Assembly (NCBI GenBank): GCA_964589945.1
Contig: CAZPVG010000001.1
Coordinates: 22,515 to 86,514 of the forward strand
Length of the DNA: 64,000 bases
From: an uncultured bacterium
Lineage (GTDB): Bacteria; Eisenbacteria; RBG-16-71-46
Direction of reading: 5' to 3'
Position 1 is the stretch's first letter, and each line of letters opens with the position of its first letter. The position numbers and the translations under genes are program-made. Shown in pieces: positions 5,492 to 49,441 of this stretch. The notes beneath the pieces were generated by a model. That model saw nothing but the letters and a program-made list of their open reading frames with translations, did no database searches and had not been told where the DNA came from.

Positions 5492-5511
5492 GCGGCTCCG
5501 GCCGGCCGCTC
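5490..5511 (+). terminator. GC-rich hairpin between convergent rsmA and phosphoesterase genes (candidate bidirectional terminator)
   Basis: GAGCGGC-tccggccg-GCCGCTC inverted repeat immediately after the rsmA stop and before the minus-strand stop at 5510. There is no U-tract. Confidence 0.3.
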
Positions 5512-6544
5512 AGGGCTTCGAGGCCGCGGCTTCCGTCGAGTCCCGGGGGGCCCGGCCCGGGCGGGCGCGCCGGGCCTTCACGTCCGGCCGAGCTTCCCAC
5601 GCCCCCACCATCCGGCCCATCGCGGGCTCGTCACGGACGTCCGGCCCGAGCATGACCACCTCGCTGTCCCGCGACTCGATCCTGCCCGAGGCGTCGAGGT
5701 CCAGCTTCGTGACCCCGGCGAACTGCCCCTCCTCGCCGCCGAAAACGACCGTGGTGTGGTCCAGCAGCCGACTGCGCTGCATGAGCGGCACGTTGCGCCC
5801 CGCGATGGCCACGTCGATGCCCGGCACCGCGAGCACGAGGCTCTCGGTGTCCATCTTGCCGAGCGAGGAGAGCAGCACGATCACCTGCGCGCCGCGCTTG
5901 CGCATCTCCGTCACCGCGCTGCGGGCGGCCTCGGTCGGGTCGCTCACCTCGAGCGTGTCGGCCGCGGAGCCGAGCTGCGCCCGGGGCGAGATCAGGCCGA
6001 AGACGCCGACCTTGTACGGGCCCACCGGGCGGACGAAGAAGGGCTGGGCGAGCGTCCGGTGCGGCGCGCGGCGCCAGAGATTCGCGCACACGAGCGGCAG
6101 CGGGTACTCGTTCATCGTCGCCTCGAGGAACCCGAGGCCGAACAGGAACTCCTGGTCGCTCAGGCCCACCGCGTCGAGGCGCATCGCGTGCATGGCCTTG
6201 GTCACGAACGGCGCGTCGTCGCGCTCCGACGGGCCCGCGGGGAAGAAGCCGCCCGTGTCCACGACGAGCAGGTTCGGGTAGATCTTCCGCAGGCTGTCGT
6301 CGAACGCCGCGCGGCGGGCGAGGCCGCCCTTGGGGATGTGGCAGCCGCACGGGACCGTCTTGGCGTGCACGTCGCTCGTCGAGACGATGACGAGCGGGCT
6401 CGCCCCGGCGCCGGCGGCGGGCCCCGCGGCCCGGGCGGGCGCGGGCGCCGCGAGCGCGATCGCCGCGGCGGCCGCGAGCACGGCGGGAACGGTCCGGCGC
6501 CACGCGGCAGCCGGGGACATCGGGGCCAGCCTGGGGAACGGCAT
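5510..6544 (-). CDS. secreted calcineurin-like metallophosphoesterase / 5'-nucleotidase-family protein
   Basis: Start ATG at 6544 has AAGGAG 7 nt upstream. Signal peptide MPFPRLAPMSPAAAWRRTVPAVLAAAAAIALAAPAPARA. IVSTSDVHAKT...KGGLARRAAF...NLLVVDTGGFF matches the N-terminal motifs of 5'-nucleotidase/UshA-type phosphoesterases. Confidence 0.6.
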   Translation of the reverse strand: MPFPRLAPMSPAAAWRRTVPAVLAAAAAIALAAPAPARAAGPAAGAGASPLVIVSTSDVHAKTVPCGCHIPKGGLARRAAFDDSLRKIYPNLLVVDTGGFFPAGPSERDDAPFVTKAMHAMRLDAVGLSDQEFLFGLGFLEATMNEYPLPLVCANLWRRAPHRTLAQPFFVRPVGPYKVGVFGLISPRAQLGSAADTLEVSDPTEAARSAVTEMRKRGAQVIVLLSSLGKMDTESLVLAVPGIDVAIAGRNVPLMQRSRLLDHTTVVFGGEEGQFAGVTKLDLDASGRIESRDSEVVMLGPDVRDEPAMGRMVGAWEARPDVKARRARPGRAPRDSTEAAASKP

Positions 6545-6695
6545 GGAAGCGCTCCTTCGTTTCGCGGGCACGGCGGGTGGAGGGGATACCGACCGGCAAT
6601 TCTCCCGTGGCGCGCGGCGACCCTTCAAGGCCGGAACGCCCCGGGAACGTCAGGGGCTCGCAAGAACTGCGTGGGGCCCGGGCCGGAACGCGACG

Positions 6696-6725
6696 CACCC
6701 CGCGGGCGGTGCCGCCCGCGGGGTG
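6696..6725 (-). terminator. GC-rich stem-loop downstream of response-regulator gene
   Basis: CACCCCGCGGGCGG-tg-CCGCCCGCGGGGTG near-perfect inverted repeat, about 25 nt past the stop of the minus-strand HK-RR operon. Confidence 0.35.
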
Positions 6726-6750
6726 CCGATACGACTCGACGCGGGGCGCC

Positions 6751-7446
6751 TCAGGGCTCGACGAACTTGTAGCCGACCTTGTGCACCGCGACGATGAACG
6801 GCTTCTCGAAGCCCTCGCCGAGCTTGCTGCGCAGGTTCGAGACGTGCGTGTCCACCGTGCGCGTGGTGACGCCGAGCTCCTCGTCCACGCCCCAGATCTC
6901 CTCGAGCAGCTCCTCGCGGCTCACGGTGCGGCCGCGGTGCTCGATGAGGTACTTGAGCAGCTCGAACTCCTTGAACGAGAGCGCGACCTGCTTGGTGGCC
7001 TTGTACACCTCGCGCGGCTCGAATCGCACCTCGACGTCGCCGAAGGTGTACGTGGTCGTGGCGGGCGTGCCCGTGTTCATCGGGCCGCGCGCCACCAGGC
7101 GCTTCACCCGCGCCATGAGCTCCTTGATGCTGAACGGCTTCGTCACGTAGTCGTCCGCGCCCAGGTCGAAGCCCTTGAGCACGTCCGCCTCGAAGTTGCG
7201 CGCGGTCATCACGAGCACCGGAATGTCGCGATGACGCTGCCGCAGCTCCTTGAGCACGGTGAAGCCGTCCTTCTCGGGAAGCATGATGTCGAGCAGCACG
7301 GCATCGGGCTTCTGCTTGAGGGCGAGGCGAAGGCCTTCCTGCCCGTTCTTGGCCGTGAGGACGTCGTAGCCGTCGTAACGGAAGTTGTGAGCCAGGCCGT
7401 CGAGCAGCCCCTCTTCGTCCTCGACGATGAGGATCTTCTTCTGCAT
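6751..7446 (-). CDS. OmpR-family two-component response regulator
   Basis: MQKKILIVEDEEGLLDGL...LLDIMLPEKDGF...DDYVTKPFSIKEL receiver domain plus winged-helix trans_reg_C (REELLEEIWG...VDTHVSNLRSKLG...VGYKF). GAAGGG Shine-Dalgarno before ATG at 7446. Confidence 0.9.
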   Translation of the reverse strand: MQKKILIVEDEEGLLDGLAHNFRYDGYDVLTAKNGQEGLRLALKQKPDAVLLDIMLPEKDGFTVLKELRQRHRDIPVLVMTARNFEADVLKGFDLGADDYVTKPFSIKELMARVKRLVARGPMNTGTPATTTYTFGDVEVRFEPREVYKATKQVALSFKEFELLKYLIEHRGRTVSREELLEEIWGVDEELGVTTRTVDTHVSNLRSKLGEGFEKPFIVAVHKVGYKFVEP

Positions 7447-7490
7447 TCGTATCCCTTCCCGGGGCTCGCGGCCCCCTTCGGTCCCGCGGG

Positions 7491-9071
7491 TCAGGCGGCT
7501 GGGGATCCGCCCTGCGACTCCTGCGGGGAGCCGTGGCCGCCCCGCCAGGTCGGGATCAGCATGGTGAAGATGCTGCCCTCGCCGGGGGTGCTGGCCACTT
7601 CGACGCGGCCATGATGCGCGCGGACGATCTGATCTACAAGGGAAAGCCCGAGGCCCGCCCCCTTCACCGTGTGCACCAGCCCTGTTTCGACGCGGACGAA
7701 CTTGTCGAAGATTCGCCCCAGGTCCTCGGCGGCGATTCCGATGCCCCGATCACTCACCGCGATGCTGACCATGCCGTCACGCTCGCGGGCCACGACCTTG
7801 ATCTCCTTGCGATCTCTTGAATACTTCACGGCGTTGTCCAGCAGGTTGAGGAGGCAGTGCTGGAGGGCGATGGCGTCGGCGTGGACCCGGGGCAGGCCCT
7901 GCGGGATGTCGAGGTGCCACTGGAAGCCCTCGTCCTCGAGCCGCAGCCGGTAGCTCTCGAACACGTTGCTGACGAGCTCCTCGACCGACACGGACGTCAG
8001 CCGGACCGGCTTCTGGCCGGACTCGAGGCGGGAGAAGTCGAGGATGTTGTCCACGAGCTGCGTGAGCCGGTCCGACTCCTTGAGGATCGTGCGGAGGTAC
8101 TTCTCCTCCTCCCCGGGGTTCCGGAACCGCCCCATCTCGAGCGTCTCGACGGCGAGGCGGATGACCGCGATCGGCGTCTTGAGCTCGTGGGTGACGTTCG
8201 AGACGAAGCTGGACTTCACCTGCACGAGCTCGATCTGCCGCACGATGTAGCGCACGCCGACCCAGGTCGCGCCGAGCAGCACCGCGGTCATGACTCCGAC
8301 GAACAGCATGAGCGCGAACAGGAAGCGCTGCGCGTCGGACGCCGGCGAGCTGGCGGTCGAGGTCACCCGCACGAGGTAGTGATCGAACGGCCCGGTGAGG
8401 TCGGCGCTGCGCGCGCTCGACGAGGGTCCGGGCTCGCGCACGCGCGCGACCTCGTGACCTTCGTCGTCGAACACCTGGACGCACAGGTTGCGCGTGGACT
8501 CGAGGCCGCCGTAGAGGCGGGGGCTCGAGCCGAGCCGGTCGCGCACGACGCTCGCGAGGTTCGTGGCGATGAACGCCCGCGGGTTGAACCACCAGCCGCC
8601 GGCCCCGACGACCTCGCCGTGGCGGCCCTTCAGGACGACGGCCGCGAACGGATGGTCGTGCCGGCCGCTCGGGTCCTCGCCGAAGAGCAGCATGTTCGTC
8701 TCGACCATCATCACGGACAGGTCGTCCATGTTGTCCACGGGGACGTAGTGCGGCGCCTCGAACTGCCGCGAGCGTGTCGCGAGCGCGGCGACGATGGCGG
8801 CCGGACCGCCGCCCGCGCGCGCCACGCCTTCGGCGGGGACGACGGCGTCGCGGAGCTGGAACAGCAGCTCCTGCTCGAACGCCTCGGAGACCTTCGCCGC
8901 GAGGTAGGCGTTGTAGCGCGCCGCGTCGGCCTGCACCTGGCGCACGACCCGCAGCGTGAGCAGCGTCGCCACGAACGAGAGCAGCAGCGCGGGCACGGCG
9001 ACGGCACCCACGAGCAGGGCGAGCTTGCGCTGGCGGGACAGGTTGAAGGGCGGCATGGGTGGGACGTTCAT
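7491..9071 (-). CDS. sensor histidine kinase with large periplasmic sensing domain
   Basis: N-terminal TM helix, about 260-aa periplasmic domain, second TM helix, HisKA (VTHELKTPIAVIRLAVETL) and HATPase_c (GAGLGLSLVDQIVRAHHGRVEV...GEGSIFTMLIP). Start ATG at 9071 (MNVPPMPPF); ATG at 9056 is an alternative. Sits 44 nt upstream of the regulator on the same strand. Confidence 0.85.
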   Translation of the reverse strand: MNVPPMPPFNLSRQRKLALLVGAVAVPALLLSFVATLLTLRVVRQVQADAARYNAYLAAKVSEAFEQELLFQLRDAVVPAEGVARAGGGPAAIVAALATRSRQFEAPHYVPVDNMDDLSVMMVETNMLLFGEDPSGRHDHPFAAVVLKGRHGEVVGAGGWWFNPRAFIATNLASVVRDRLGSSPRLYGGLESTRNLCVQVFDDEGHEVARVREPGPSSSARSADLTGPFDHYLVRVTSTASSPASDAQRFLFALMLFVGVMTAVLLGATWVGVRYIVRQIELVQVKSSFVSNVTHELKTPIAVIRLAVETLEMGRFRNPGEEEKYLRTILKESDRLTQLVDNILDFSRLESGQKPVRLTSVSVEELVSNVFESYRLRLEDEGFQWHLDIPQGLPRVHADAIALQHCLLNLLDNAVKYSRDRKEIKVVARERDGMVSIAVSDRGIGIAAEDLGRIFDKFVRVETGLVHTVKGAGLGLSLVDQIVRAHHGRVEVASTPGEGSIFTMLIPTWRGGHGSPQESQGGSPAA

Positions 9072-9229
9072 GCGCGGCCGAGAGTAGTGGCGTCGCGCGC
9101 GTTGCGCCACGCGGCCGGGCGGCGCCCGCCGCGGGCGGTCCGCCGCGGCGGTGCGCCCCGGGAGAATCACAGCGGCCCGGCCCGCCGAGGCGGACCGGGC
9201 CGGAAACGCGGATCAGGTCAAAGGAGAGG

Positions 9230-9943
9230 TCAGCTGTGGGTGCGGGCCGCCACCTGCGCGTCGGTGGTCGCGTGCACCTGGCGGACGATCGAGCGGTCGC
9301 TCGAGGTGATGATCAGCTGGCACCCCCGCTCGACGTTGACGACCTGCCGCACGAGCTTGCCGCTCGCGAGCGCCCCGCGCAGCCGCTTGCACGACGTGCA
9401 GAGCTTCGCCTTGCTGCTCCTGAGCGCGGAGATGACCCGGTTGTTGTAGAGGGCCACCGCGGCCTGCAGCTCGCGGACGTTCTCGGGGTTGTCCGCCGTG
9501 TACAGGATCATCGTGCCGTTGCGCAGGCCGACGACCTGCTCGTGCGCGCCGATCTGGGTCAGGTCCTCGCCGCAGGCCGCCTCGTCGGTGCAGACGGCGC
9601 AGTCGCCGTGCGCCGCCGCCGAGTGCATCGTGCAGTTGCCCGCCGCGGCCGCCGTCGCGCCGTCGGCGTAGGGGCAGCCGCCCGAGGCCATCTTCGCCTT
9701 GCAGGCCTCGGCGCTCATCGGGCAGTTGCCCGCCGCCGATGCCGGGCAGCCGTTCTGGGCGGCGGCGGTGGCGGTCGCGCCGTGCGCGCTGCAGTTGCCC
9801 TGGGCGCTGGCGGTCTTCGTGGCCGATGCCTTCGATCCGCACGAAGAGGCGTTCGCGGATTTCGCGCCTGGGCACGCGAAGGCGGCGGCGGCGAGCCAGG
9901 CGGTTGCGGCGATGGAAAGGGCGAGGAGTCGCAACAGCTTCAT
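9230..9943 (-). CDS. secreted Cys/Met/His-rich repeat protein (hypothetical; possible metal-binding)
   Basis: ATG at 9943 with GGGAGG 6 nt upstream. Signal peptide MKLLRLLALSIAATAWLAAAAFA. Then repeated GNC/GGC motifs (QGNCSAHGATA, NGCPASAAGNCPMSAEAC, GGCPYADGATAAAAGNCTMHSAAAHGDCAVCTDEAACGEDL) and a C-terminal globular region. Confidence 0.55.
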   Translation of the reverse strand: MKLLRLLALSIAATAWLAAAAFACPGAKSANASSCGSKASATKTASAQGNCSAHGATATAAAQNGCPASAAGNCPMSAEACKAKMASGGCPYADGATAAAAGNCTMHSAAAHGDCAVCTDEAACGEDLTQIGAHEQVVGLRNGTMILYTADNPENVRELQAAVALYNNRVISALRSSKAKLCTSCKRLRGALASGKLVRQVVNVERGCQLIITSSDRSIVRQVHATTDAQVAARTHS

Positions 9944-10119
9944 GTCCAACCTCCCGGAAGGTGGCGCGGACCCGGACGGGCCTCGCGAACGTCGCCTGAA
10001 GCATCGGCCGGCGTAGGGGAAAGTCTGTTCGCGGTCCTTCCGGCCGGTGTCAGTGAAGTGCAAAAGCTCCCCGGATCGGCGGCCCGCGGGCCCCGTTCGC
10101 GCGAGATTTCACCTGCTCG

Positions 10120-10148
10120 TTGACGCGTTACGGGCCGCTCCCTAGTGT
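10120..10148 (+). promoter_or_regulatory. sigma-70-like promoter candidate (TTGACG-N17-TAGTGT)
   Basis: TTGACG at 10120-10125 and TAGTGT at 10143-10148 with a 17-nt spacer, about 20 nt upstream of the ATG at 10169. Confidence 0.35.
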
Positions 10149-10168
10149 GCGCCGCGGACCGGAATCCC

Positions 10169-11359
10169 ATGCCCAAACGACGCTCGTCCTCGAAGAAGGG
10201 CCGCGGCCCCCTGTGGCTCGGACTGCTCGCCGCGCTCGCGCTGCTGCTCTTCGCCGGCGGCGAGCTGTACGGGTTCCTGCGTTCCGACGGCGCCCGGATC
10301 TTCCTGTGGCGAAACCTCTATCTCGGCGACCGGGCGCACGCCGTCCGCATCGTCGGCCGTCACGCCCGCGAAGGGCTCGCCGCGCTGGGCGTGCCCGCAT
10401 CCCGCGTCCGCGAGACGGTCATCGCCCGCGCCGGCCGGCCGCCCCTGCGCTGGACGGTGGACCTGCCGCGCGGCACCTCGCCGACGCAGGCCAACTACGC
10501 GGTGACGCAGGCGGTCCAGGCCGTGGGCGCGGAGGTGCTCGCCGCGCGCGAGGAGCCGGCGCCCGAAGGCGGACAGGTCGTCACGATGACCCTCGGGGTT
10601 CCCGGCCGGCCCACGCACGAGGTCGTGCTCGTGCGCCCGGGGGTGGATCCCGAATCGCCGGCGGCGACCGAGACGCGAGTCGCGATCGTGCTGTTCGGCC
10701 TCGCCGACGATCCGGCTTCGGCGAAAGCGCTGCTCGCACGGCCCGAGCCGTTCGCGGTGATCGCGCCCGCGATCGGCCAGGACAGCGACCCGCTGATCCG
10801 GCTCGCGCACGACTCGAAGCACCAGCTCGTGCTGCAGGTCCCGATGGAGCCCGAGGACTACCCGCGCGCGAACCCCGGCCCCGGCACGATGCTCGTCAAC
10901 ATGACCGCCGGCCGCATCGAGAAGATGACGCGCGACTACCTGGAGCACGCCGGCGGCGTGACCGCGGTGATGAACCTGCAGGGCTCCTTCGCGGCGCAGG
11001 ACGAGCCGTTCATGACCGCGTTCTACACCGAACTCAAGCACGCGGGCCTCACGTTCCTGCACCTCTCTCCGCCGCCGCGCTCGGTGGCCCGTCCGCTCGC
11101 GGCGCGCCTCGGCGTCGGCTACGACGAGCCCGACGCCATCCTCGACGACGAGGCCCGCAGCCGCACGACGAAGTCGCTCGACCGCGCGTGGGCCGCCCTG
11201 CTCGAGCGCAGGAAGGGCGGCCACACCGCCATCGTGCTGCTGCGGGCGACCCCGACGAGCGTGAAGTGGGCGCAGGAGGCGCTCGTGCCGAAGAAGCTCG
11301 AGGGTGAGGCGCACATCGTGCCGCTCTCGGCCGTGCTGCCGAAGATCGCGAAGGGCTGA
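10169..11359 (+). CDS. divergent polysaccharide deacetylase family protein (YibQ-like)
   Basis: N-terminal TM helix (PLWLGLLAALALLLFAGG), then a domain with AIVLFGLADDP...FAVIAPAIGQ...VLQVPMEPEDYPRANPGPGTML...TAVMNLQGS resembling the YibQ/DUF610-type divergent polysaccharide deacetylase fold. Confidence 0.7.
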   Translation: MPKRRSSSKKGRGPLWLGLLAALALLLFAGGELYGFLRSDGARIFLWRNLYLGDRAHAVRIVGRHAREGLAALGVPASRVRETVIARAGRPPLRWTVDLPRGTSPTQANYAVTQAVQAVGAEVLAAREEPAPEGGQVVTMTLGVPGRPTHEVVLVRPGVDPESPAATETRVAIVLFGLADDPASAKALLARPEPFAVIAPAIGQDSDPLIRLAHDSKHQLVLQVPMEPEDYPRANPGPGTMLVNMTAGRIEKMTRDYLEHAGGVTAVMNLQGSFAAQDEPFMTAFYTELKHAGLTFLHLSPPPRSVARPLAARLGVGYDEPDAILDDEARSRTTKSLDRAWAALLERRKGGHTAIVLLRATPTSVKWAQEALVPKKLEGEAHIVPLSAVLPKIAKG

Positions 11360-13417: not shown

Positions 13418-13816
13418 CGCACGAGGCCGCGACGCCGCGAGAGCCCGCCGAAGACGCGCCGCCATTCGCATCTTTCTCGTCCCGGACCTGCCGCGCGTGT
13501 CGTCACAGGTGACACTTTGTGTCCACTCCGGTGACAGGGGTGACCACTTCGTTGGGAGTCGCCCGTTTCAGGACCGCAACGCTCCCGGGGAGCAGCTGCC
13601 CTTCCCGCAACGTGGTGCGGGCGCGGGAGCGTTCCAGCGCTCCGGCGTGCCATCGCAGGCACGTACCTTGCTGTCCCCCGAACAACGGACGTGAAGCCGC
13701 GCTGCATGGGCACGGCATTGACGGCACGTCCAGGGCTCGTACCCGTCTTCGCATCGCCGCCGCCGGGTGGCAGTCCGGCGGCGGCCGCGGAGATTCCAGG
13801 CACGTCAGAGAAGTGC

Positions 13817-13857
13817 GAAAAGCCGCGAGCGGGTCACCTCCCAGGCTCGCGGCTTTC
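13817..13857 (-). terminator. intrinsic terminator-like hairpin downstream of asmA-family gene (readable on both strands)
   Basis: AAAGCCGCGAGC-gggtcacctcccag-GCTCGCGGCTTT: a 12-bp perfect stem 18 nt after the minus-strand stop at 13875. It is followed by TTTTC on the minus strand and TTTC on the plus strand. Confidence 0.5.
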
Positions 13858-13874
13858 GCGCGTCCGCGCGGCGG

Positions 13875-46970: not shown

Positions 46971-48731
46971 CTAACGCGGGGCGGTCGCCGCGGCGGGGAG
47001 CTCGAAACGGAAGGCGCTTCCCCGTCCGGGGGCGCTCTCGACCGAGACGCTCCCTCCGTGGAGGCCGACGATGTGCTTCACGATCGACAGCCCCAGCCCG
47101 GTCCCCCCCTGCTCCCGTGAGCGCGCCTTGTCCAGGCGATAGAAGCGCTCGAAGACGCGCGCCTGGTCCTCGGCCGGGATGCCGGGCCCGGTGTCGCGCA
47201 CCTCACACCAGGCGTGCCCCGCGTCGGCCCCGGCGGAGACGGTGACCCCGCCGCGCTCGGTGTACTTGACCGCGTTGTCCACGAGGTTCGCCACGACCTG
47301 CGCGAGCCGCGCGCGATCGGCCTCCACGTCGACCGGCGGCCCGGGCAGCAGCTCCAGCGCCAGCCCGGCGCGGTGCGCGGCCTCGCGGAAGCTCGCGACG
47401 TGCTCCGCGAGCAGCTCGCGGAGGTCGAAGCGCGTGCGCCGGAGCGGCGCGCCCTCGCGCTCGAGCTCGGCGAGCGACAGCAGGTCGTCCACGAGCGCCT
47501 GCAGCCGCACGGCCTGGTCGCGGATCACGCGCACGAAGTGCTCGCGGTGCTCGGCGTCCTCGAGCCCGCCGTCGAGCAGCGTCTCGGCGTAGCCGCGCAG
47601 CGAGGTGAGCGGCGTGCGCAGCTCGTGCGAGACGTTGGCCACGAAATCCTGGCGCATGCGCGTCACGCGCTCGGCCTCGGTGAGGTCGTGCAGCACCAGC
47701 AGGACCGCGCCGCCGCCGGCCTCGCCGAGCGGCGTCGCGCCCGCGCGCAGGACGCGCGACTCGGGCGACCAGATGCGCAGGTCCTCGACGAGGCCGCTGC
47801 CCCGCGCGCGGGCGCGGGCGACGAGGTCGCCGATCTCGGGCACGCGCGCGAACTCGAGCAGCGGCGTCCCGGAGGCGGCGGGCCGGGGTGCGCCGAGCAG
47901 CACCGCGAGGCTGTGGTTGCAGTGGAGCAGCCGCCCCTCGGAATCCACGAGCGCGACGCCGTCGGACATGTGCGCGAGCACGTACTCGCGCTCGTCGCGT
48001 TCGCGGCGCAGCGCGTCGAGCCGTTCCCGCAGCTCGCGCGCCATCACGTTGAGCGCCGTGCCGAGCCGCCCCAGCTCGTCCTCGGGCCGCTCGAGGGCGC
48101 GGGCGCCCGAGTCTCCCGACCCGATGCGCCGGGCGACGGCCTCGAGCTCGATGACGCGGCCGACCTGCCGCCGCGAGAGCGTGAACGCGACGAGGAGCGA
48201 GGCCGCGATCGCGAACAGGGCGGCGAACAGGAGCCCGCGCCACTGCAGCCGGCCGAGGTCGCGCAGGAAGCCCAGCGATTCGGCGACGCGCACGACCGCG
48301 AACGGCGCGCCGGGCCACGCCGGGACCGCGACGTACTGCAGATCGATCCCCAGCGACACGCTCCTGCGCACCGCGCTCTTCGCGTGGCCCGCGAGGGCGC
48401 CCCTCACCTCGGGCCGGTTCGCGTGGTTCTCGAGGTAGGCCGTGTCGGCCCGCGAGTCGGCGAACACGCGCCCGTCGGCACGGATCAGCGTCACGCGCAG
48501 GCCGGTCCGCCGGTCCACGTCCTGCACCGCCGCCAGCCAGCCCGCGCGGTGCAGCGCCGGCGCGTCCCGGAGGCGTCGCGCGACCAGCGGGGCCTCGCGC
48601 TCGAGCACGCGGGCATTGCGGGAGAGCAGGTCGCGGCGCTCGATCTGCAGCTCGATCGCGACCAGCGTGGCGAGCGCGGCGACGACGGAGAGCGCGAGCG
48701 CGAGGAAGAGGCGCAGCCGGATCGAGCGCAC
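46971..48731 (-). CDS. phoR: PhoR-like sensor histidine kinase
   Basis: Two N-terminal TM helices, a PAS-like region, HisKA (VANVSHELRTPLTSLRGYAETL) and HATPase_c (GGTGLGLSIVKHIVGLHGGSVSVESAPGRGSAFRFEL). 11 nt downstream of phoB. Confidence 0.85.
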   Translation of the reverse strand: MRSIRLRLFLALALSVVAALATLVAIELQIERRDLLSRNARVLEREAPLVARRLRDAPALHRAGWLAAVQDVDRRTGLRVTLIRADGRVFADSRADTAYLENHANRPEVRGALAGHAKSAVRRSVSLGIDLQYVAVPAWPGAPFAVVRVAESLGFLRDLGRLQWRGLLFAALFAIAASLLVAFTLSRRQVGRVIELEAVARRIGSGDSGARALERPEDELGRLGTALNVMARELRERLDALRRERDEREYVLAHMSDGVALVDSEGRLLHCNHSLAVLLGAPRPAASGTPLLEFARVPEIGDLVARARARGSGLVEDLRIWSPESRVLRAGATPLGEAGGGAVLLVLHDLTEAERVTRMRQDFVANVSHELRTPLTSLRGYAETLLDGGLEDAEHREHFVRVIRDQAVRLQALVDDLLSLAELEREGAPLRRTRFDLRELLAEHVASFREAAHRAGLALELLPGPPVDVEADRARLAQVVANLVDNAVKYTERGGVTVSAGADAGHAWCEVRDTGPGIPAEDQARVFERFYRLDKARSREQGGTGLGLSIVKHIVGLHGGSVSVESAPGRGSAFRFELPAAATAPR

Positions 48732-48742
48732 GCGCGCTCCGG

Positions 48743-49441
48743 TCAGGCGCCCACCGCCCCCGCGGGAGCGACGAACTTGTACCCCGCGCCGGTCACGGTC
48801 TCGATGAAGGCGTGGTCCGCCCCGAGCTTCTGGCGCAGGCGGCGAACGTGCACGTCCACGGTGCGCGTCTCGCCGAGGTAGTCGTAGCCCCAGACCTTGC
48901 GCAGCAGCTCCTCGCGCGAGACGACCCGTCCGGGGTGGCGCATCAGGAACGCGAGCAGCTCGAACTCCCGCGGCGTGAGGGCGAGCCGCCGCCCCGCGAC
49001 CGAGGCCTCGCGGGCCGCCGGGTCCACGCGCAGCGCGCCCTGCTCGAGCGCGTGCCCCGCCTGCGAGGGCTTCGCCCGCCGCAGCAGCGCGCGCAGCCGC
49101 GCGATCAGCTCGCGCGGGCTGAAGGGCTTGGTGAGGTAGTCGTCCGCGCCGTGCTCGAAGCCGAGCAGTTTGTCCATCTCGGCGCCACGCGCCGTCAGCA
49201 CGATCACCGGGACGTCCGCGGTCGCGGGCTCGCCGCGCACCTCGCGGAGGATCTCGAGGCCGTTCAGGCCCGGCAGCATCAGGTCGAGGACGACGGCGTC
49301 CGGGCGCGAGGCGAACAGCTGCTCGAGCCCCTCTTCGCCGTCCGCGAACGCCGCGACGCGGAAGCCGGACCGCTCGAGGTTGTAGCGCAGGAGATCGCGG
49401 ATCTCCTTCTCGTCCTCGATCACCATCACGAGCTCGCTCAT
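48743..49441 (-). CDS. phoB: PhoB-like OmpR-family response regulator
   Basis: GGAGG 4-5 nt before ATG at 49441. MSELVMVIEDEKEIRDLL...VLDLMLPGLNG...DDYLTKPFSPRELIARL receiver domain plus winged helix (REELLRKVWGYDYLGETRTVDVHVRRLRQKLG...AGYKF). Only the C-terminal 232 aa of the 654-aa track ORF are real. Confidence 0.9.
   Translation of the reverse strand: MSELVMVIEDEKEIRDLLRYNLERSGFRVAAFADGEEGLEQLFASRPDAVVLDLMLPGLNGLEILREVRGEPATADVPVIVLTARGAEMDKLLGFEHGADDYLTKPFSPRELIARLRALLRRAKPSQAGHALEQGALRVDPAAREASVAGRRLALTPREFELLAFLMRHPGRVVSREELLRKVWGYDYLGETRTVDVHVRRLRQKLGADHAFIETVTGAGYKFVAPAGAVGA

What the first reader, a model, noticed from the sequence alone, without database searches (positions are those of the whole stretch)
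6751..9943. Secreted Cys/Met/His-rich repeat protein directly upstream of an HK-RR pair with a large periplasmic sensor domain
The 238-aa exported protein carries reiterated G-N-C / G-G-C / C-P-M-S / H-G-D-C-A-V-C motifs, like periplasmic metal-binding proteins and chaperones. It has its own strong Shine-Dalgarno (GGGAGG). It lies 158 nt upstream of a histidine kinase with an about 260-aa periplasmic domain and an OmpR-type regulator. This could be a metal or redox-responsive envelope stress module of a type not obviously matching CusRS or CopRS.
Basis: inference. Interest (0 to 1): 0.5.

Follow-up and report, generated by a model that had tools for sequence, protein, structure and literature searches.

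The report
Exported cysteine-rich protein with dedicated sensor
The three genes are real and stay together across an uncultured bacterial phylum (Candidatus Eisenbacteria): an exported protein with a previously undescribed four-cysteine domain sits in front of its own sensor kinase and regulator, but whether it handles metals or redox stress is still only inferred.

Summary
On the minus strand lie a 237-aa exported Cys/Met/His-rich protein (9230..9943), a histidine kinase (7491..9074) and an OmpR-type regulator (6751..7446).

The protein has two parts. The N-terminal part is a variable, disordered Ala/Ser/Thr/Cys/Met stretch. The C-terminal ~120-aa alpha/beta domain is confidently predicted and is a tandem duplication of [CxxC-helix, beta-hairpin, helix]. 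It matches no Pfam or NCBIfam family and no solved structure.

The order Cys-rich gene, kinase, regulator is kept in 53 species-level genomes, nearly all Candidatus Eisenbacteria. The regulator is the best-conserved protein of the neighbourhood (mostly 81-98% identity).

Two new cis elements are conserved across the phylum:
- a promoter block with hexamers T(T/G)(G/A)CAC phased at 0, +11 and +33 bp, then a -10-like GATGCT;
- a GC-rich terminator-like hairpin between the Cys-rich gene and the kinase.

My best reading is an autoregulated three-component module. The abundant periplasmic four-cysteine protein would be both the output of the kinase-regulator pair and a co-sensor for a metal or thiol-oxidation signal.

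It is not CusRS/CopRS, PhoBR, HMA, TusA, CopM or CpxP/ZraP. The metal or redox role is untested. The phylum-wide, housekeeping-like conservation argues against a simple resistance module.

The parts
10047..10065 (-). Distal promoter block TTTTGCAC-N5-TGACAC. The hexamers TTGCAC (10063..10058) and TGACAC (10052..10047) are 11 bp apart. Candidate binding site for the response regulator.
   Evidence: Exact match in the window. TTTTGCA[CGT] is found in 41 of 43 distinct upstream regions, at -118 to -171 from the ATG in all but two.
10025..10030 (-). Promoter-proximal third hexamer, 33 bp from the first. It is degenerate in this window (GAACAG); the phylum consensus is TGACAC. It lies where a -35 element would be.
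   Evidence: Alignments. The exact pattern TGACA[CGT]-N15-17-TGACA occurs upstream of the Cys-rich gene in 47 of 65 fetched loci, some of them redundant; only 3 loci carry any other copy.
10000..10005 (-). -10-like hexamer GATGCT inside the conserved block GCCGAT(G/A)(C/A)T.
   Evidence: The column block GCCGAT is conserved at 80% or more in the 41-sequence alignment. No transcription start site has been mapped.
9950..9955 (-). Shine-Dalgarno GGGAGG, 6 nt before the ATG.
   Evidence: CCGGGAGGT in about 40 of 43 upstream regions.
9875..9943 (-). Signal peptide (aa 1-23), ending with the signal peptidase I site AFA|C.
   Evidence: Sequence. MK.LRL...A.A|C is conserved in homologues. The AxA site is read from the sequence; no signal-peptide predictor was run.
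9635..9874 (-). Variable, disordered Ala/Ser/Thr/Gly/Lys region (aa 24-103) with widely spaced Cys, Met and His.
   Evidence: pLDDT below 50 for aa 23-66 and 89-98. Length and sequence vary between homologues. Family medians: 124 aa, 9 Cys, 5 Met, 4 His; C-x3-M-x3-C in 76 of 143 proteins; almost no CxxC or CxC.
9233..9634 (-). Conserved C-terminal part (aa 104-237). It holds the cluster C104-x-M-H-x4-H-x-D-C115-x2-C118-x-D-E-x2-C124 and the folded duplicated unit [CxxC-helix, beta-hairpin, helix] x2.
   Evidence: AlphaFold2 pLDDT 94-98 over aa 121-220; the domain-only model has pLDDT 87.4 and pTM 0.78. Invariant columns. Comparison of the two halves: local hhalign P = 4.5e-5 (probability 69%); the global alignment puts CxxC on CxxC.
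9590..9601 (-). First CxxC motif (C115-A-V-C118), immediately before and running into the first long helix of the domain.
   Evidence: It is replaced by CxxH in P0069, P0181, P0185 and P0193.
9389..9400 (-). Second CxxC motif (C182-T-S-C185). It opens the most conserved stretch of the protein, LCxxCKx[LM]RGAxASGKLxRE.
   Evidence: In one search the four cysteines were fixed by the selection regex; the other positions were not.
9173..9202 (-). GC-rich hairpin (13-bp stem) followed by a tail with only moderate T content. It acts as an intrinsic terminator or attenuator between the Cys-rich gene and the kinase.
   Evidence: MFE -35.7 kcal/mol, z = -4.05. Present after the stop codon in nearly all loci. 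The consensus stem has 12 pairs, 8 of them with compensatory changes, in 38 sequences.
7491..9074 (-). Sensor histidine kinase: TM1, a periplasmic domain of about 208 aa (8328..8951), TM2, then HisKA and HATPase directly. Pfam reports no HAMP or PAS domain.
   Evidence: An alternative ATG lies at 9056 (JGI gene call).
6751..7446 (-). OmpR/PhoB-type response regulator, the most conserved protein of the neighbourhood.
   Evidence: Identity across loci is 81-98%, apart from L019 (61%) and the 41-aa partial match in L065 (76%).

Best explanation
This is a three-component signalling module conserved across Candidatus Eisenbacteria.

Proposed mechanism:
1. A promoter carrying phased direct-repeat hexamers T(T/G)(G/A)CAC at 0, +11 and +33 bp drives the first gene. 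I infer that the adjacent OmpR-type regulator binds these hexamers.
2. The first gene has a very strong ribosome-binding site. Its product is exported through Sec into the periplasm.
3. A conserved GC-rich hairpin right after this gene stops or attenuates most transcripts. The kinase and regulator are therefore made at a much lower level, by read-through.
4. The exported protein has a disordered, thiol- and thioether-rich N-terminal tail. It also has a folded C-terminal domain in which two CxxC motifs, one per repeat, provide four conserved ligands.
5. I infer that these four ligands hold a metal ion, probably Zn(II) or a thiophilic ion such as Cu(I). I further infer that metal occupancy or thiol oxidation changes how the domain contacts the kinase's periplasmic domain, through its invariant surface RGAxASGKLxRE.

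On this reading the protein is both the main output of the system and its co-sensor or feedback element.

Shown: gene anatomy, export signal, predicted domain fold and duplication, cysteine conservation, gene linkage, and both cis elements.

Inferred: regulator binding to the hexamers, metal binding, and contact with the kinase.
For: Linkage:
- The order Cys-rich gene, kinase, regulator holds in all 53 species-level genomes found, wherever the contig extends.
- Insertions occur on both sides of the trio (deacetylase|Cys-rich in L041 and L035; regulator|RsmA in many loci). No gene-sized insertion occurs inside it; the Cys-rich-to-kinase spacer is about 50-450 nt.

Promoter:
- The block CTTTTTGCAC-N5-TGACAC-N16-TGACAC...GCCGATGCT lies at a nearly fixed distance from the ATG.
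- The exact N15-17 repeat lies upstream of the Cys-rich gene in 47 of 65 loci; only 3 loci carry any other copy. In the window that pattern is expected by chance 0.02 times.
- Direct repeats with an 11-bp period are how OmpR/PhoB-family dimers bind DNA (established knowledge). A nearly invariant regulator would explain why the site stays conserved.

Hairpin. In some loci the whole spacer is only 50-60 nt, leaving little room for a separate kinase promoter.

Metal-ligand pattern:
- C115, C182 and C185 are invariant and C118 at least 90% conserved.
- Among distant relatives the only invariant columns are one Cys of each motif and the two hairpin glycines. Motif 1 is CxxC or CxxH. A Cys-to-His swap is typical of metal ligands, not of disulfide pairs.
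- There is no bias toward even cysteine numbers (65 even, 53 odd, p = 0.31), so obligatory disulfide pairing is not indicated.
- C104, H107, H112, D114, D120 and C124 around motif 1 are 56-95% conserved.

The kinase sensor domain has no conserved Cys, His or Met of its own. This fits indirect sensing through a partner.
Against: - No metal-resistance, efflux or redox-repair gene is linked. The neighbours are a divergent polysaccharide deacetylase, a glycogen debranching enzyme, AsmA, RsmA and TatD.
- Such high, phylum-wide conservation of the regulator is more typical of an essential envelope or cell-cycle system than of metal homeostasis.
- The hexamer array could be part of the core promoter or the site of another regulator.
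- In this window the promoter-proximal hexamer is degenerate (GAACAG).
- Distant relatives of the domain in other phyla are not next to a kinase-regulator pair. The domain therefore does not require such a partner.
- In the periplasm of an aerobe, CxxC pairs may simply form structural disulfides.
- All homologous loci share the wider synteny, so linkage is partly phylogenetic inertia.
Confidence: 0.4

Rival explanations
1. Accessory subunit of a core envelope or cell-cycle two-component system, in the manner of LpqB with MtrB or YycH/YycI with WalK. The folded domain, perhaps stabilised by structural zinc or by disulfides, binds the kinase's periplasmic domain and tunes its activity. The cysteine-rich tail is only a flexible linker. 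The signal sensed has nothing to do with metals or redox state.
For: - The regulator is 81-98% identical across the phylum and is better conserved than RsmA (65-87%) or TatD (70-87%) in the same loci.
- The context is housekeeping and envelope genes.
- The regulator's best NCBIfam matches include YycF, MtrA and RpaB, and the kinase's include WalK, MtrB and NblS. All are below their cut-offs.
- The invariant polar surface RGAxASGKLxRE looks like a protein interface.
- MtrAB-LpqB is a known conserved three-component precedent (PMC5845573).
Against: - This reading does not explain why the variable tail keeps a median of 9 Cys, 5 Met and 4 His while its sequence drifts.
- It does not explain the dense Cys/Met/His/Asp cluster next to motif 1.
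- The very strong SD and the terminator point to a protein made in large excess over the kinase. That suits a sponge or an output better than a stoichiometric subunit.
Confidence: 0.25
2. Periplasmic thiol-disulfide (oxidative or electrophile stress) sensor or buffer. The CxxC pairs, possibly zinc-loaded, and the many spaced cysteines are oxidised by oxidants. Oxidation switches the protein's conformation and thereby kinase signalling, as in zinc-CxxC redox centres and the HbpS-SenS-SenR pathway.
For: - Each CxxC motif sits at the start of a helix, a position also used by redox-active CxxC motifs (established knowledge).
- There are many cysteines with no parity constraint.
Against: - CxxH variants in relatives fit metal ligation better than disulfide chemistry.
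- The predicted fold is not thioredoxin-like.
- No linked Dsb, peroxidase or methionine sulfoxide reductase genes were seen.
Confidence: 0.2
3. No functional link. The Cys-rich gene is an independent, separately terminated transcription unit. It merely lies upstream of the kinase-regulator pair because the whole region is syntenic within one lineage.
For: - The entire neighbourhood (AsmA, GDE, deacetylase, RsmA, HEAT, TatD) is syntenic in the same genomes.
- A terminator-like hairpin follows the Cys-rich gene.
- Distant relatives of the domain stand alone.
Against: - Rearrangements and insertions occur on both sides of the trio but never within it, across lineages in which the Cys-rich protein is only 33-72% identical to the window's.
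- Spacers of 50-60 nt leave little room for an independent kinase promoter.
- The direct-repeat promoter architecture fits control by an OmpR-type regulator.
Confidence: 0.1

Closest known systems
copMRS of Synechocystis sp. PCC 6803 (CopM with CopRS)
   Same: The first gene encodes an exported periplasmic protein rich in metal ligands. It is followed in the same orientation by a two-component system that controls the operon. CopM binds Cu(I) and confers resistance by itself (PMC4335983).
   Different: - The gene order within the pair differs: copM-copR-copS there, kinase then regulator here.
- The text does not give CopM's domain family. Here no Pfam family of any kind matches at E<=1, and the ligands are mainly Cys in a new alpha/beta domain.
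- There is no linked RND efflux operon.
- The regulator is conserved across a whole phylum.
- A terminator hairpin follows the first gene.
MtrAB-LpqB of Actinobacteria, and WalRK-YycHI of Firmicutes
   Same: A phylum-wide, highly conserved OmpR-family two-component system is encoded next to a dedicated extracytoplasmic accessory protein. LpqB interacts with MtrB and lowers its activity (PMC5845573).
   Different: - The accessory gene lies upstream here, not downstream.
- The protein is soluble with a signal peptidase I site, not a lipoprotein or membrane-anchored.
- It is cysteine-rich with a double CxxC.
- There is no sequence or fold relationship. NCBIfam scores for MtrA, MtrB, YycF and WalK are all far below their cut-offs.
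HbpS-SenS-SenR of Streptomyces
   Same: A secreted accessory protein acts as the sensory component for a membrane kinase and its regulator, and responds to redox and metal stress (PMC4991794 and PMC3754957).
   Different: Per those papers, HbpS is an octameric protein that deals with haem and iron. Here there is no haem-binding CxxCH motif, and the predicted fold is a small duplicated alpha/beta domain.
CpxP, Spy and ZraP with CpxAR and ZraSR
   Same: A periplasmic protein is both induced by a two-component system and feeds back on its kinase. ZraPSR is described as sensing zinc-induced envelope stress (PMC12314577).
   Different: - From my own knowledge, those proteins are all-helical LTxxQ proteins transcribed divergently from the kinase-regulator genes.
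- The predicted fold here is alpha/beta.
- No Pfam family matches.
HMA (CopZ, MerP) and TusA small alpha/beta domains
   Same: A CxxC motif precedes a helix, which is followed by a beta-hairpin and a second helix. Multi-repeat relatives of the hairpin-'DDP'-helix unit weakly hit Pfam TusA (P0202: 36.3 bits, gathering score 28.6) and HMA (P0206: 25.2 bits, gathering score 24.8).
   Different: - The window protein has no Pfam hit.
- hhalign probabilities are 3.4% for TusA and 0.6% for CopZ, each over 25 residues only.
- The unit lacks the first and last strands of the HMA fold.

Membership tests
CusRS/CopRS heavy-metal two-component systems (NCBIfam TIGR01386 / TIGR01387) | The kinase scores above the curated cut-off of the heavy-metal sensor kinase model over its full length, including the sensor and HAMP regions. 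| tested here: not met
   132.9 bits against a cut-off of 292.55. Only residues 285-505, the catalytic core, align. Pfam reports no HAMP domain.
CusRS/CopRS heavy-metal two-component systems (NCBIfam TIGR01386 / TIGR01387) | The regulator scores above the cut-off of the heavy-metal response regulator model. | tested here: not met
   170.6 bits against a cut-off of 279.2.
CusRS/CopRS heavy-metal two-component systems (NCBIfam TIGR01386 / TIGR01387) | Conserved His, Met or Cys metal ligands in the periplasmic sensor domain. | tested here: not met
   In 57 distinct kinase sequences, the only conserved residues among C, H, M and W in the periplasmic domain are W161 and W162.
PhoR/PhoB phosphate regulon system | Scores above the PhoR and PhoB equivalog cut-offs, with the PhoR architecture (cytoplasmic PAS domain). 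| tested here: not met
   - Kinase: 192.7 against 334.2 (TIGR02966) and 215.7 against 400 (PnpS).
- Regulator: 188.8 against 296.2.
- Pfam reports no PAS domain.
- A much better PhoR/PhoB-like pair lies at 46971..49441 in the same window: 300.9, 370 and 256.9 bits.
HMA heavy-metal-associated domain (PF00403) | Match to the Pfam model, or the beta-alpha-beta-beta-alpha-beta fold with MxCxxC in the first loop. | tested here: not met
TusA sulfur-carrier family (PF01206) | Match to the model, including the CPxP active-site motif. | tested here: not met
   No Pfam hit for the window protein. hhalign gives 3.4% probability over 25 residues (one search is CopZ; one search is TusA). The sequence has no CPxP motif. 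Only distant multi-repeat relatives reach the Pfam gathering score.
CopM and other Pfam-defined periplasmic metal-binding families | Match to any Pfam family, such as the one that covers CopM. | tested here: not met
   Zero Pfam families at E<=1.
CpxP/Spy/ZraP periplasmic modulators | An all-helical protein with LTxxQ motifs (features recalled from my own knowledge). | tested here: not met
   No Pfam hit. The predicted fold is a four-stranded alpha/beta sandwich. The sequence has no LTxxQ motif.
Metallothionein-like proteins | Dense CxC and CxxC clusters that wrap metal-thiolate clusters. | tested here: not met
   In the tails of 143 family members, Cys-Cys spacings peak at 8 and at 13-16. A spacing of 3 (CxxC) occurs once, and a spacing of 2 (CxC) never.
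Bacterial lipoproteins | A lipobox [LVI][ASTVI][GAS]C at the end of the signal peptide. | tested here: not met
   - The site is A-[F/L/Q/Y/H]-A|C, which is an AxA signal peptidase I site with a bulky residue at -2.
- The +1 Cys is replaced by G or S in some members.
- This was read from the sequences; no predictor was run.
Three-component systems (exported accessory protein, kinase, regulator) | Conserved genetic linkage of the accessory gene with the kinase-regulator pair across the lineage. | tested here: met
   Found in 53 of 53 species-level genomes wherever the contig extends. There is no gene-sized insertion within the trio.
Three-component systems (exported accessory protein, kinase, regulator) | Physical or functional interaction of the accessory protein with the kinase's sensor domain. 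| not testable with these tools
One fragment (P0175) fuses the C-terminal domain in frame to the start of the kinase's periplasmic domain, but it could not be traced to a contig.
Tetrahedral Cys4 or Cys3His metal site | Four conserved ligands brought together in space. | tested here: inconclusive
   The ligand conservation and the Cys/His swap are shown.

The most novel reading that the evidence does not exclude
The C-terminal double-CxxC domain founds a new class of periplasmic metal- or thiol-switch domain. In Eisenbacteria it would be the true ligand-sensing subunit of an essential two-component system that defines the phylum.

The underlying hairpin-'DDP'-helix unit also occurs as multi-repeat proteins with Cys/His/Met-rich linkers, for example in a candidate division Zixibacteria MAG and an Acidobacteriota MAG. 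It would then be a widespread, so far unrecognised module for handling metals in the periplasm.
Probability: 0.2. Interest if true: 0.65.

Novelty: new variant of a known kind. Interest (0 to 1): 0.48.

Why it matters
- The kind of system, an exported accessory protein encoded with its own kinase and regulator, is known. This one uses a domain with no Pfam or NCBIfam family and no solved structural relative. It is fixed across an entire uncultured phylum, and its regulator is better conserved than the housekeeping genes next to it. It is therefore a candidate core signalling system of Candidatus Eisenbacteria.
- The domain family has 337 cluster representatives at E<=0.001, and the relatives that carry an organism name come from more than one phylum. 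It deserves a family definition.
- The conserved hexamer array gives a concrete, testable operator. It could be used to predict the regulon from genomes alone, which is a rare handle on the physiology of an uncultured lineage.
- If the four-cysteine site proves to be a metal or redox switch, it would add a new periplasmic sensing chemistry to two-component signalling.

Tried and rejected
- **Family searches.** Pfam and NCBIfam on the Cys-rich protein gave nothing. A PDB sequence search with the domain profile gave nothing.
- **HMA and TusA.** These ideas came from the CxxC-helix-hairpin-helix layout and from weak Pfam hits of distant repeat proteins. hhalign and the fold searches rejected them.
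- **PhoBR.** The kinase and regulator match PnpS, PhoR and PhoB best, but all scores are below the cut-offs, and a better PhoR/PhoB-like pair lies elsewhere in the window.
- **Sigma-54 promoter.** I considered this for the TTGCA element. The GG-to-GC spacing does not fit (read by eye).
- **Sigma-70 scan.** The consensus scan found no promoter in 6500..10400, and its terminator rule missed the hairpin because the T-tract is weak.
- **DNA tandem repeats** as the origin of the quasi-repeats: not found.
- **Rfam.** Nothing over the whole window or over the two spacers.
- **Contexts of distant relatives.** They are monocistronic and not beside a kinase-regulator pair. The linkage could therefore not be confirmed independently outside Eisenbacteria.
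- **Homologues of the kinase sensor domain.** Only 14 close fragments were found, which was uninformative. The precomputed PF26343 flag on one of them did not reproduce.
- **P0175 fusion fragment.** The look-up found no record.
- **Cysteine parity test** for obligatory disulfides: no bias.

Full report
**1. What is in the sequence**

The window is about 73% G+C. Between 6751 and 9943 the minus strand carries three ORFs.

- **Cys-rich ORF, 9230..9943 (237 aa).** A GGGAGG Shine-Dalgarno lies 6 nt before the ATG. The product starts with a Sec-type signal peptide ending AFA|C.
- **Histidine kinase, 7491..9074 (527 aa).** HisKA covers residues 287-353 and HATPase 400-509. Pfam reports nothing for the first 280 residues.
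- **Response regulator, 6751..7446.** It has Response_reg plus Trans_reg_C, the OmpR/PhoB type.

From the sequence and the alignment, the kinase has two hydrophobic segments, at about residues 18-41 and 250-273. They bracket a periplasmic domain of about 208 aa. TM2 runs almost directly into HisKA, and Pfam reports no HAMP or PAS domain.

The 158-nt spacer is 155 nt plus the stop codon.

**2. Anatomy of the Cys-rich protein**

Seventy-one homologues were found, all unannotated. Those that carry a name come from Candidatus Eisenbacteria MAGs.

The alignment and AlphaFold2 divide the mature protein into two parts.

*Residues 24-103: the variable tail.*
- It is a low-complexity Ala/Ser/Thr/Gly/Lys stretch, with pLDDT below 50 for residues 23-66 and 89-98.
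- Its length and sequence drift between homologues, but its composition is kept. Across 143 family members the medians are 124 aa, 9 Cys, 5 Met and 4 His.
- Cys-Cys spacings peak at 8 (C-x3-M-x3-C in 76 of 143 proteins) and at 13-16. CxxC and CxC are almost absent.
They are not DNA tandem repeats.

*Residues 104-237: the conserved part.*
- It opens with the ligand cluster C104-x-M-H-x4-H-x-D-C115-x2-C118-x-D-E-x2-C124.
- It then forms a confidently predicted domain (pLDDT 94-98 over residues 121-220). The order of elements is helix, strand, strand, helix, helix, strand, strand, helix.
- Each CxxC motif (115-118 and 182-185) sits at the start of the first helix of one half.
- The two halves align with each other. 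The local hhalign P-value is 4.5e-5 (probability 69%), and the global alignment puts CxxC on CxxC. The domain is therefore a tandem duplication of a [CxxC-helix, hairpin, helix] unit.
- C115, C182 and C185 are invariant and C118 at least 90% conserved in the homology-based alignment.
- The most conserved stretch of the whole protein is LCxxCKx[LM]RGAxASGKLxRE. Most of its conserved residues are polar or small, and it looks like an interaction surface.

**3. Is the domain known?**

No.

- Pfam and NCBIfam give nothing.
- A PDB sequence-profile search gives nothing.

An exhaustive profile search found 337 cluster representatives at E<=0.001, about 100 of them the core Eisenbacteria type. The rest fall into two groups.
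- Exported proteins of 150-230 aa with the same double-motif layout. One close relative is named as coming from a candidate division Zixibacteria MAG.
- Multi-repeat proteins made of the hairpin-'DDP'-helix unit, separated by Cys/His/Met/Gly-rich linkers. One cluster member is named as coming from an Acidobacteriota MAG.

Among the distant single-domain relatives, the only invariant columns are one Cys of each motif and the two hairpin glycines. Motif 1 is CxxC or CxxH. P0069 within the core family also has CxxH. Such Cys/His exchange is the signature of metal ligands rather than disulfide partners.

Cysteine counts show no preference for even numbers (65 against 53, p = 0.31).

The resemblance to HMA and TusA is only local. 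hhalign gives 0.6% and 3.4% probability, so membership is rejected.

**4. Linkage**

A scan of one genome per species found the core family in 53 genomes, nearly all labelled Candidatus Eisenbacteria (the candidate phylum is Candidatus Eiseniibacteriota).

A tblastn map of ten window proteins on all loci shows the following.
- The order is always: divergent polysaccharide deacetylase | Cys-rich gene, kinase, regulator.
- Insertions occur between the deacetylase and the Cys-rich gene (L041, L035) and between the regulator and RsmA (many loci).
- No gene-sized insertion occurs inside the trio. The spacer is about 50-450 nt.

Identity to the window proteins:

| Protein | Identity range |
|---|---|
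| Regulator | 81-98% (apart from L019 at 61% and a 41-aa partial match at 76%) |
| TatD | 70-87% |
| RsmA | 65-87% |
| Kinase | 46-90% |
| Cys-rich protein | 33-72% |

The regulator is the best-conserved protein of the region. The caveat is that the whole neighbourhood is syntenic, so part of the linkage is inheritance. Distant relatives of the domain in other lineages are monocistronic and give no independent confirmation.

**5. Two conserved cis elements (new)**

*Promoter block.* Upstream of the Cys-rich gene, 41 of 43 distinct intergenic regions carry TTTTGCA[CGT], at -118 to -171 from the ATG in all but two. Aligning them gives the block CTTTTTGCAC-N5-TGACAC-N16-TGACAC-GCTTT-N~13-GCCGAT(G/A)(C/A)T.
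- The three hexamers T(T/G)(G/A)CAC start at 0, +11 and +33 bp, so they lie on one face of the helix.
- They are followed, at promoter-like spacing, by a -10-like GATGCT.
- The exact pattern TGACA[CGT]-N15-17-TGACA lies upstream of the Cys-rich gene in 47 of 65 fetched loci. Only 3 loci carry any other copy, each in or beside the AsmA/GDE gap.
- In the window that pattern is expected by chance 0.02 times.
- The window copy is 10047..10065. Its promoter-proximal hexamer is degenerate (GAACAG, 10025..10030).

Direct repeats with an 11-bp period are how OmpR/PhoB-type regulators bind DNA (established knowledge). Metal-responsive repressors typically use palindromes instead. With a nearly invariant regulator next door, autoregulation is the natural inference, but it is an inference.

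*Hairpin.* Right after the stop codon, nearly every locus has a GC-rich hairpin GGGCCGG(T/C)(C/T)CGC-loop-GCG(G/A)(A/G)CCGGCCC with a T-containing tail.
- In the window it spans 9173..9202, with MFE -35.7 kcal/mol and z = -4.05.
- In 38 sequences the 12-pair consensus stem has compensatory changes at 8 pairs.
- Because some spacers are only 50-60 nt long in total, the kinase and regulator are most likely expressed by read-through.
- The hairpin would thus set a high ratio of Cys-rich protein to kinase. The strong SD of the first gene, and the absence of an obvious SD before the kinase ATG, point the same way.

**6. What the two-component system is not**

- NCBIfam scores are far below the curated cut-offs for heavy-metal systems (132.9 against 292.55; 170.6 against 279.2). 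They are also below the PhoR/PhoB cut-offs (192.7 against 334.2; 188.8 against 296.2).
- A second pair at 46971..49441 is a much better PhoR/PhoB-like candidate (300.9, 370 and 256.9 bits).
- The sensor domain has conserved motifs (GAGGWWF, YGGLE, GPF) but no conserved Cys, His or Met. This argues against direct metal ligation by the kinase.

**7. Interpretation**

The best-supported model (confidence 0.4) is an autoregulated three-component module. The abundant exported double-CxxC protein would be both the main output and a periplasmic co-sensor. Its four conserved ligands would hold a metal, and metal occupancy or thiol oxidation would modulate its contact with the kinase.

Rivals:
- a metal-independent accessory subunit of a core envelope system, like LpqB with MtrB (0.25);
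- a thiol-disulfide stress sensor or buffer, like zinc-CxxC redox centres or HbpS-SenS-SenR (0.2);
- mere synteny (0.1).

The stress-module framing is weakened by the housekeeping-like, phylum-wide conservation and by the absence of any linked detoxification genes.

**8. Comparison and novelty**

In function, the closest analogues are copMRS (PMC4335983), MtrAB-LpqB (PMC5845573), HbpS-SenS-SenR (PMC4991794) and CpxP/ZraP-type feedback proteins. The protein is not a member of any of these families. I rate it a new variant of a known kind: a known system logic built on an undescribed domain, with a newly defined operator and attenuator. Interest is moderate (0.48). It is a solid new family and a handle on an uncultured phylum, but no function has been demonstrated.

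Noticed in passing
window 13418..13874 (array at 13510..13536, + strand): The 457-nt gap between the convergent GDE and AsmA genes holds a second copy of the TGACAC-N16-TGACA array, plus TGACC 10 bp further on. It is conserved at the nucleotide level but not convincingly at the protein level with related loci (74% over 263 nt with L001; shorter blocks with L004/L005 and L006). A bidirectional hairpin lies at about 13818..13860. Rfam finds nothing. This may be a small RNA controlled by the same regulator.
   Followed up: partly
window 5510..6541 (-): The gene just downstream of the regulator encodes an exported UshA/5'-nucleotidase-like metallophosphatase domain with the motif VPCGCHIPKGG. Its best NCBIfam match is 'UshA-like (seleno)protein PCGU' (111 bits, cut-off 275), so here Cys stands where relatives have selenocysteine. 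It is present only in the closest relatives (L001-L003).
   Followed up: partly
window 46971..49441 (-): A second OmpR-type two-component system lies about 38 kb away. It is a near-threshold PhoR/PhoB-like pair: kinase 370 bits against PnpS (cut-off 400) and 300.9 against TIGR02966 (cut-off 334.2); regulator 256.9 bits against PhoB (cut-off 296.2).
   Followed up: partly
protein P0175 (metagenomic fragment, 113 aa): In this fragment the C-terminal end of the Cys-rich domain runs in frame into the start of the kinase's periplasmic domain, skipping TM1. It is either a natural fusion, which would support a periplasmic interaction, or an assembly or deletion artefact. Its contig could not be retrieved.
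   Followed up: partly
window 10118..10126 (CGTTGACGC on the + strand): A conserved TTGACG element, like a -35 box, lies near the start of the divergent polysaccharide deacetylase gene (10166..11359). It was found, within one mismatch, in 34 of 43 upstream regions. Its distance from the Cys-rich promoter block varies, so the two promoters look independent.
   Followed up: partly
window 9950..9962 and homologous loci: The sequence just 5' of the Shine-Dalgarno is also conserved (ACCTTCC-GGGAGGT). The upstream half resembles the 16S anti-SD and is nearly complementary to the SD. The two halves are adjacent with no loop between them, so the meaning is unclear.
   Followed up: no
proteins P0199, P0202, P0206, P0212, P0215, P0216 (other lineages): These exported proteins consist of 4-6 tandem copies of a unit of about 35 aa, 'GVxRxVxNTxNGVxIxITSDDPxxVExIQ', separated by Cys/His/Met/Gly-rich linkers. 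JGI names two of them 'TusA-related sulfurtransferase', but only P0202 (TusA) and P0206 (HMA) reach a Pfam gathering score, and only just. This looks like an uncharacterised periplasmic repeat family.
   Followed up: partly
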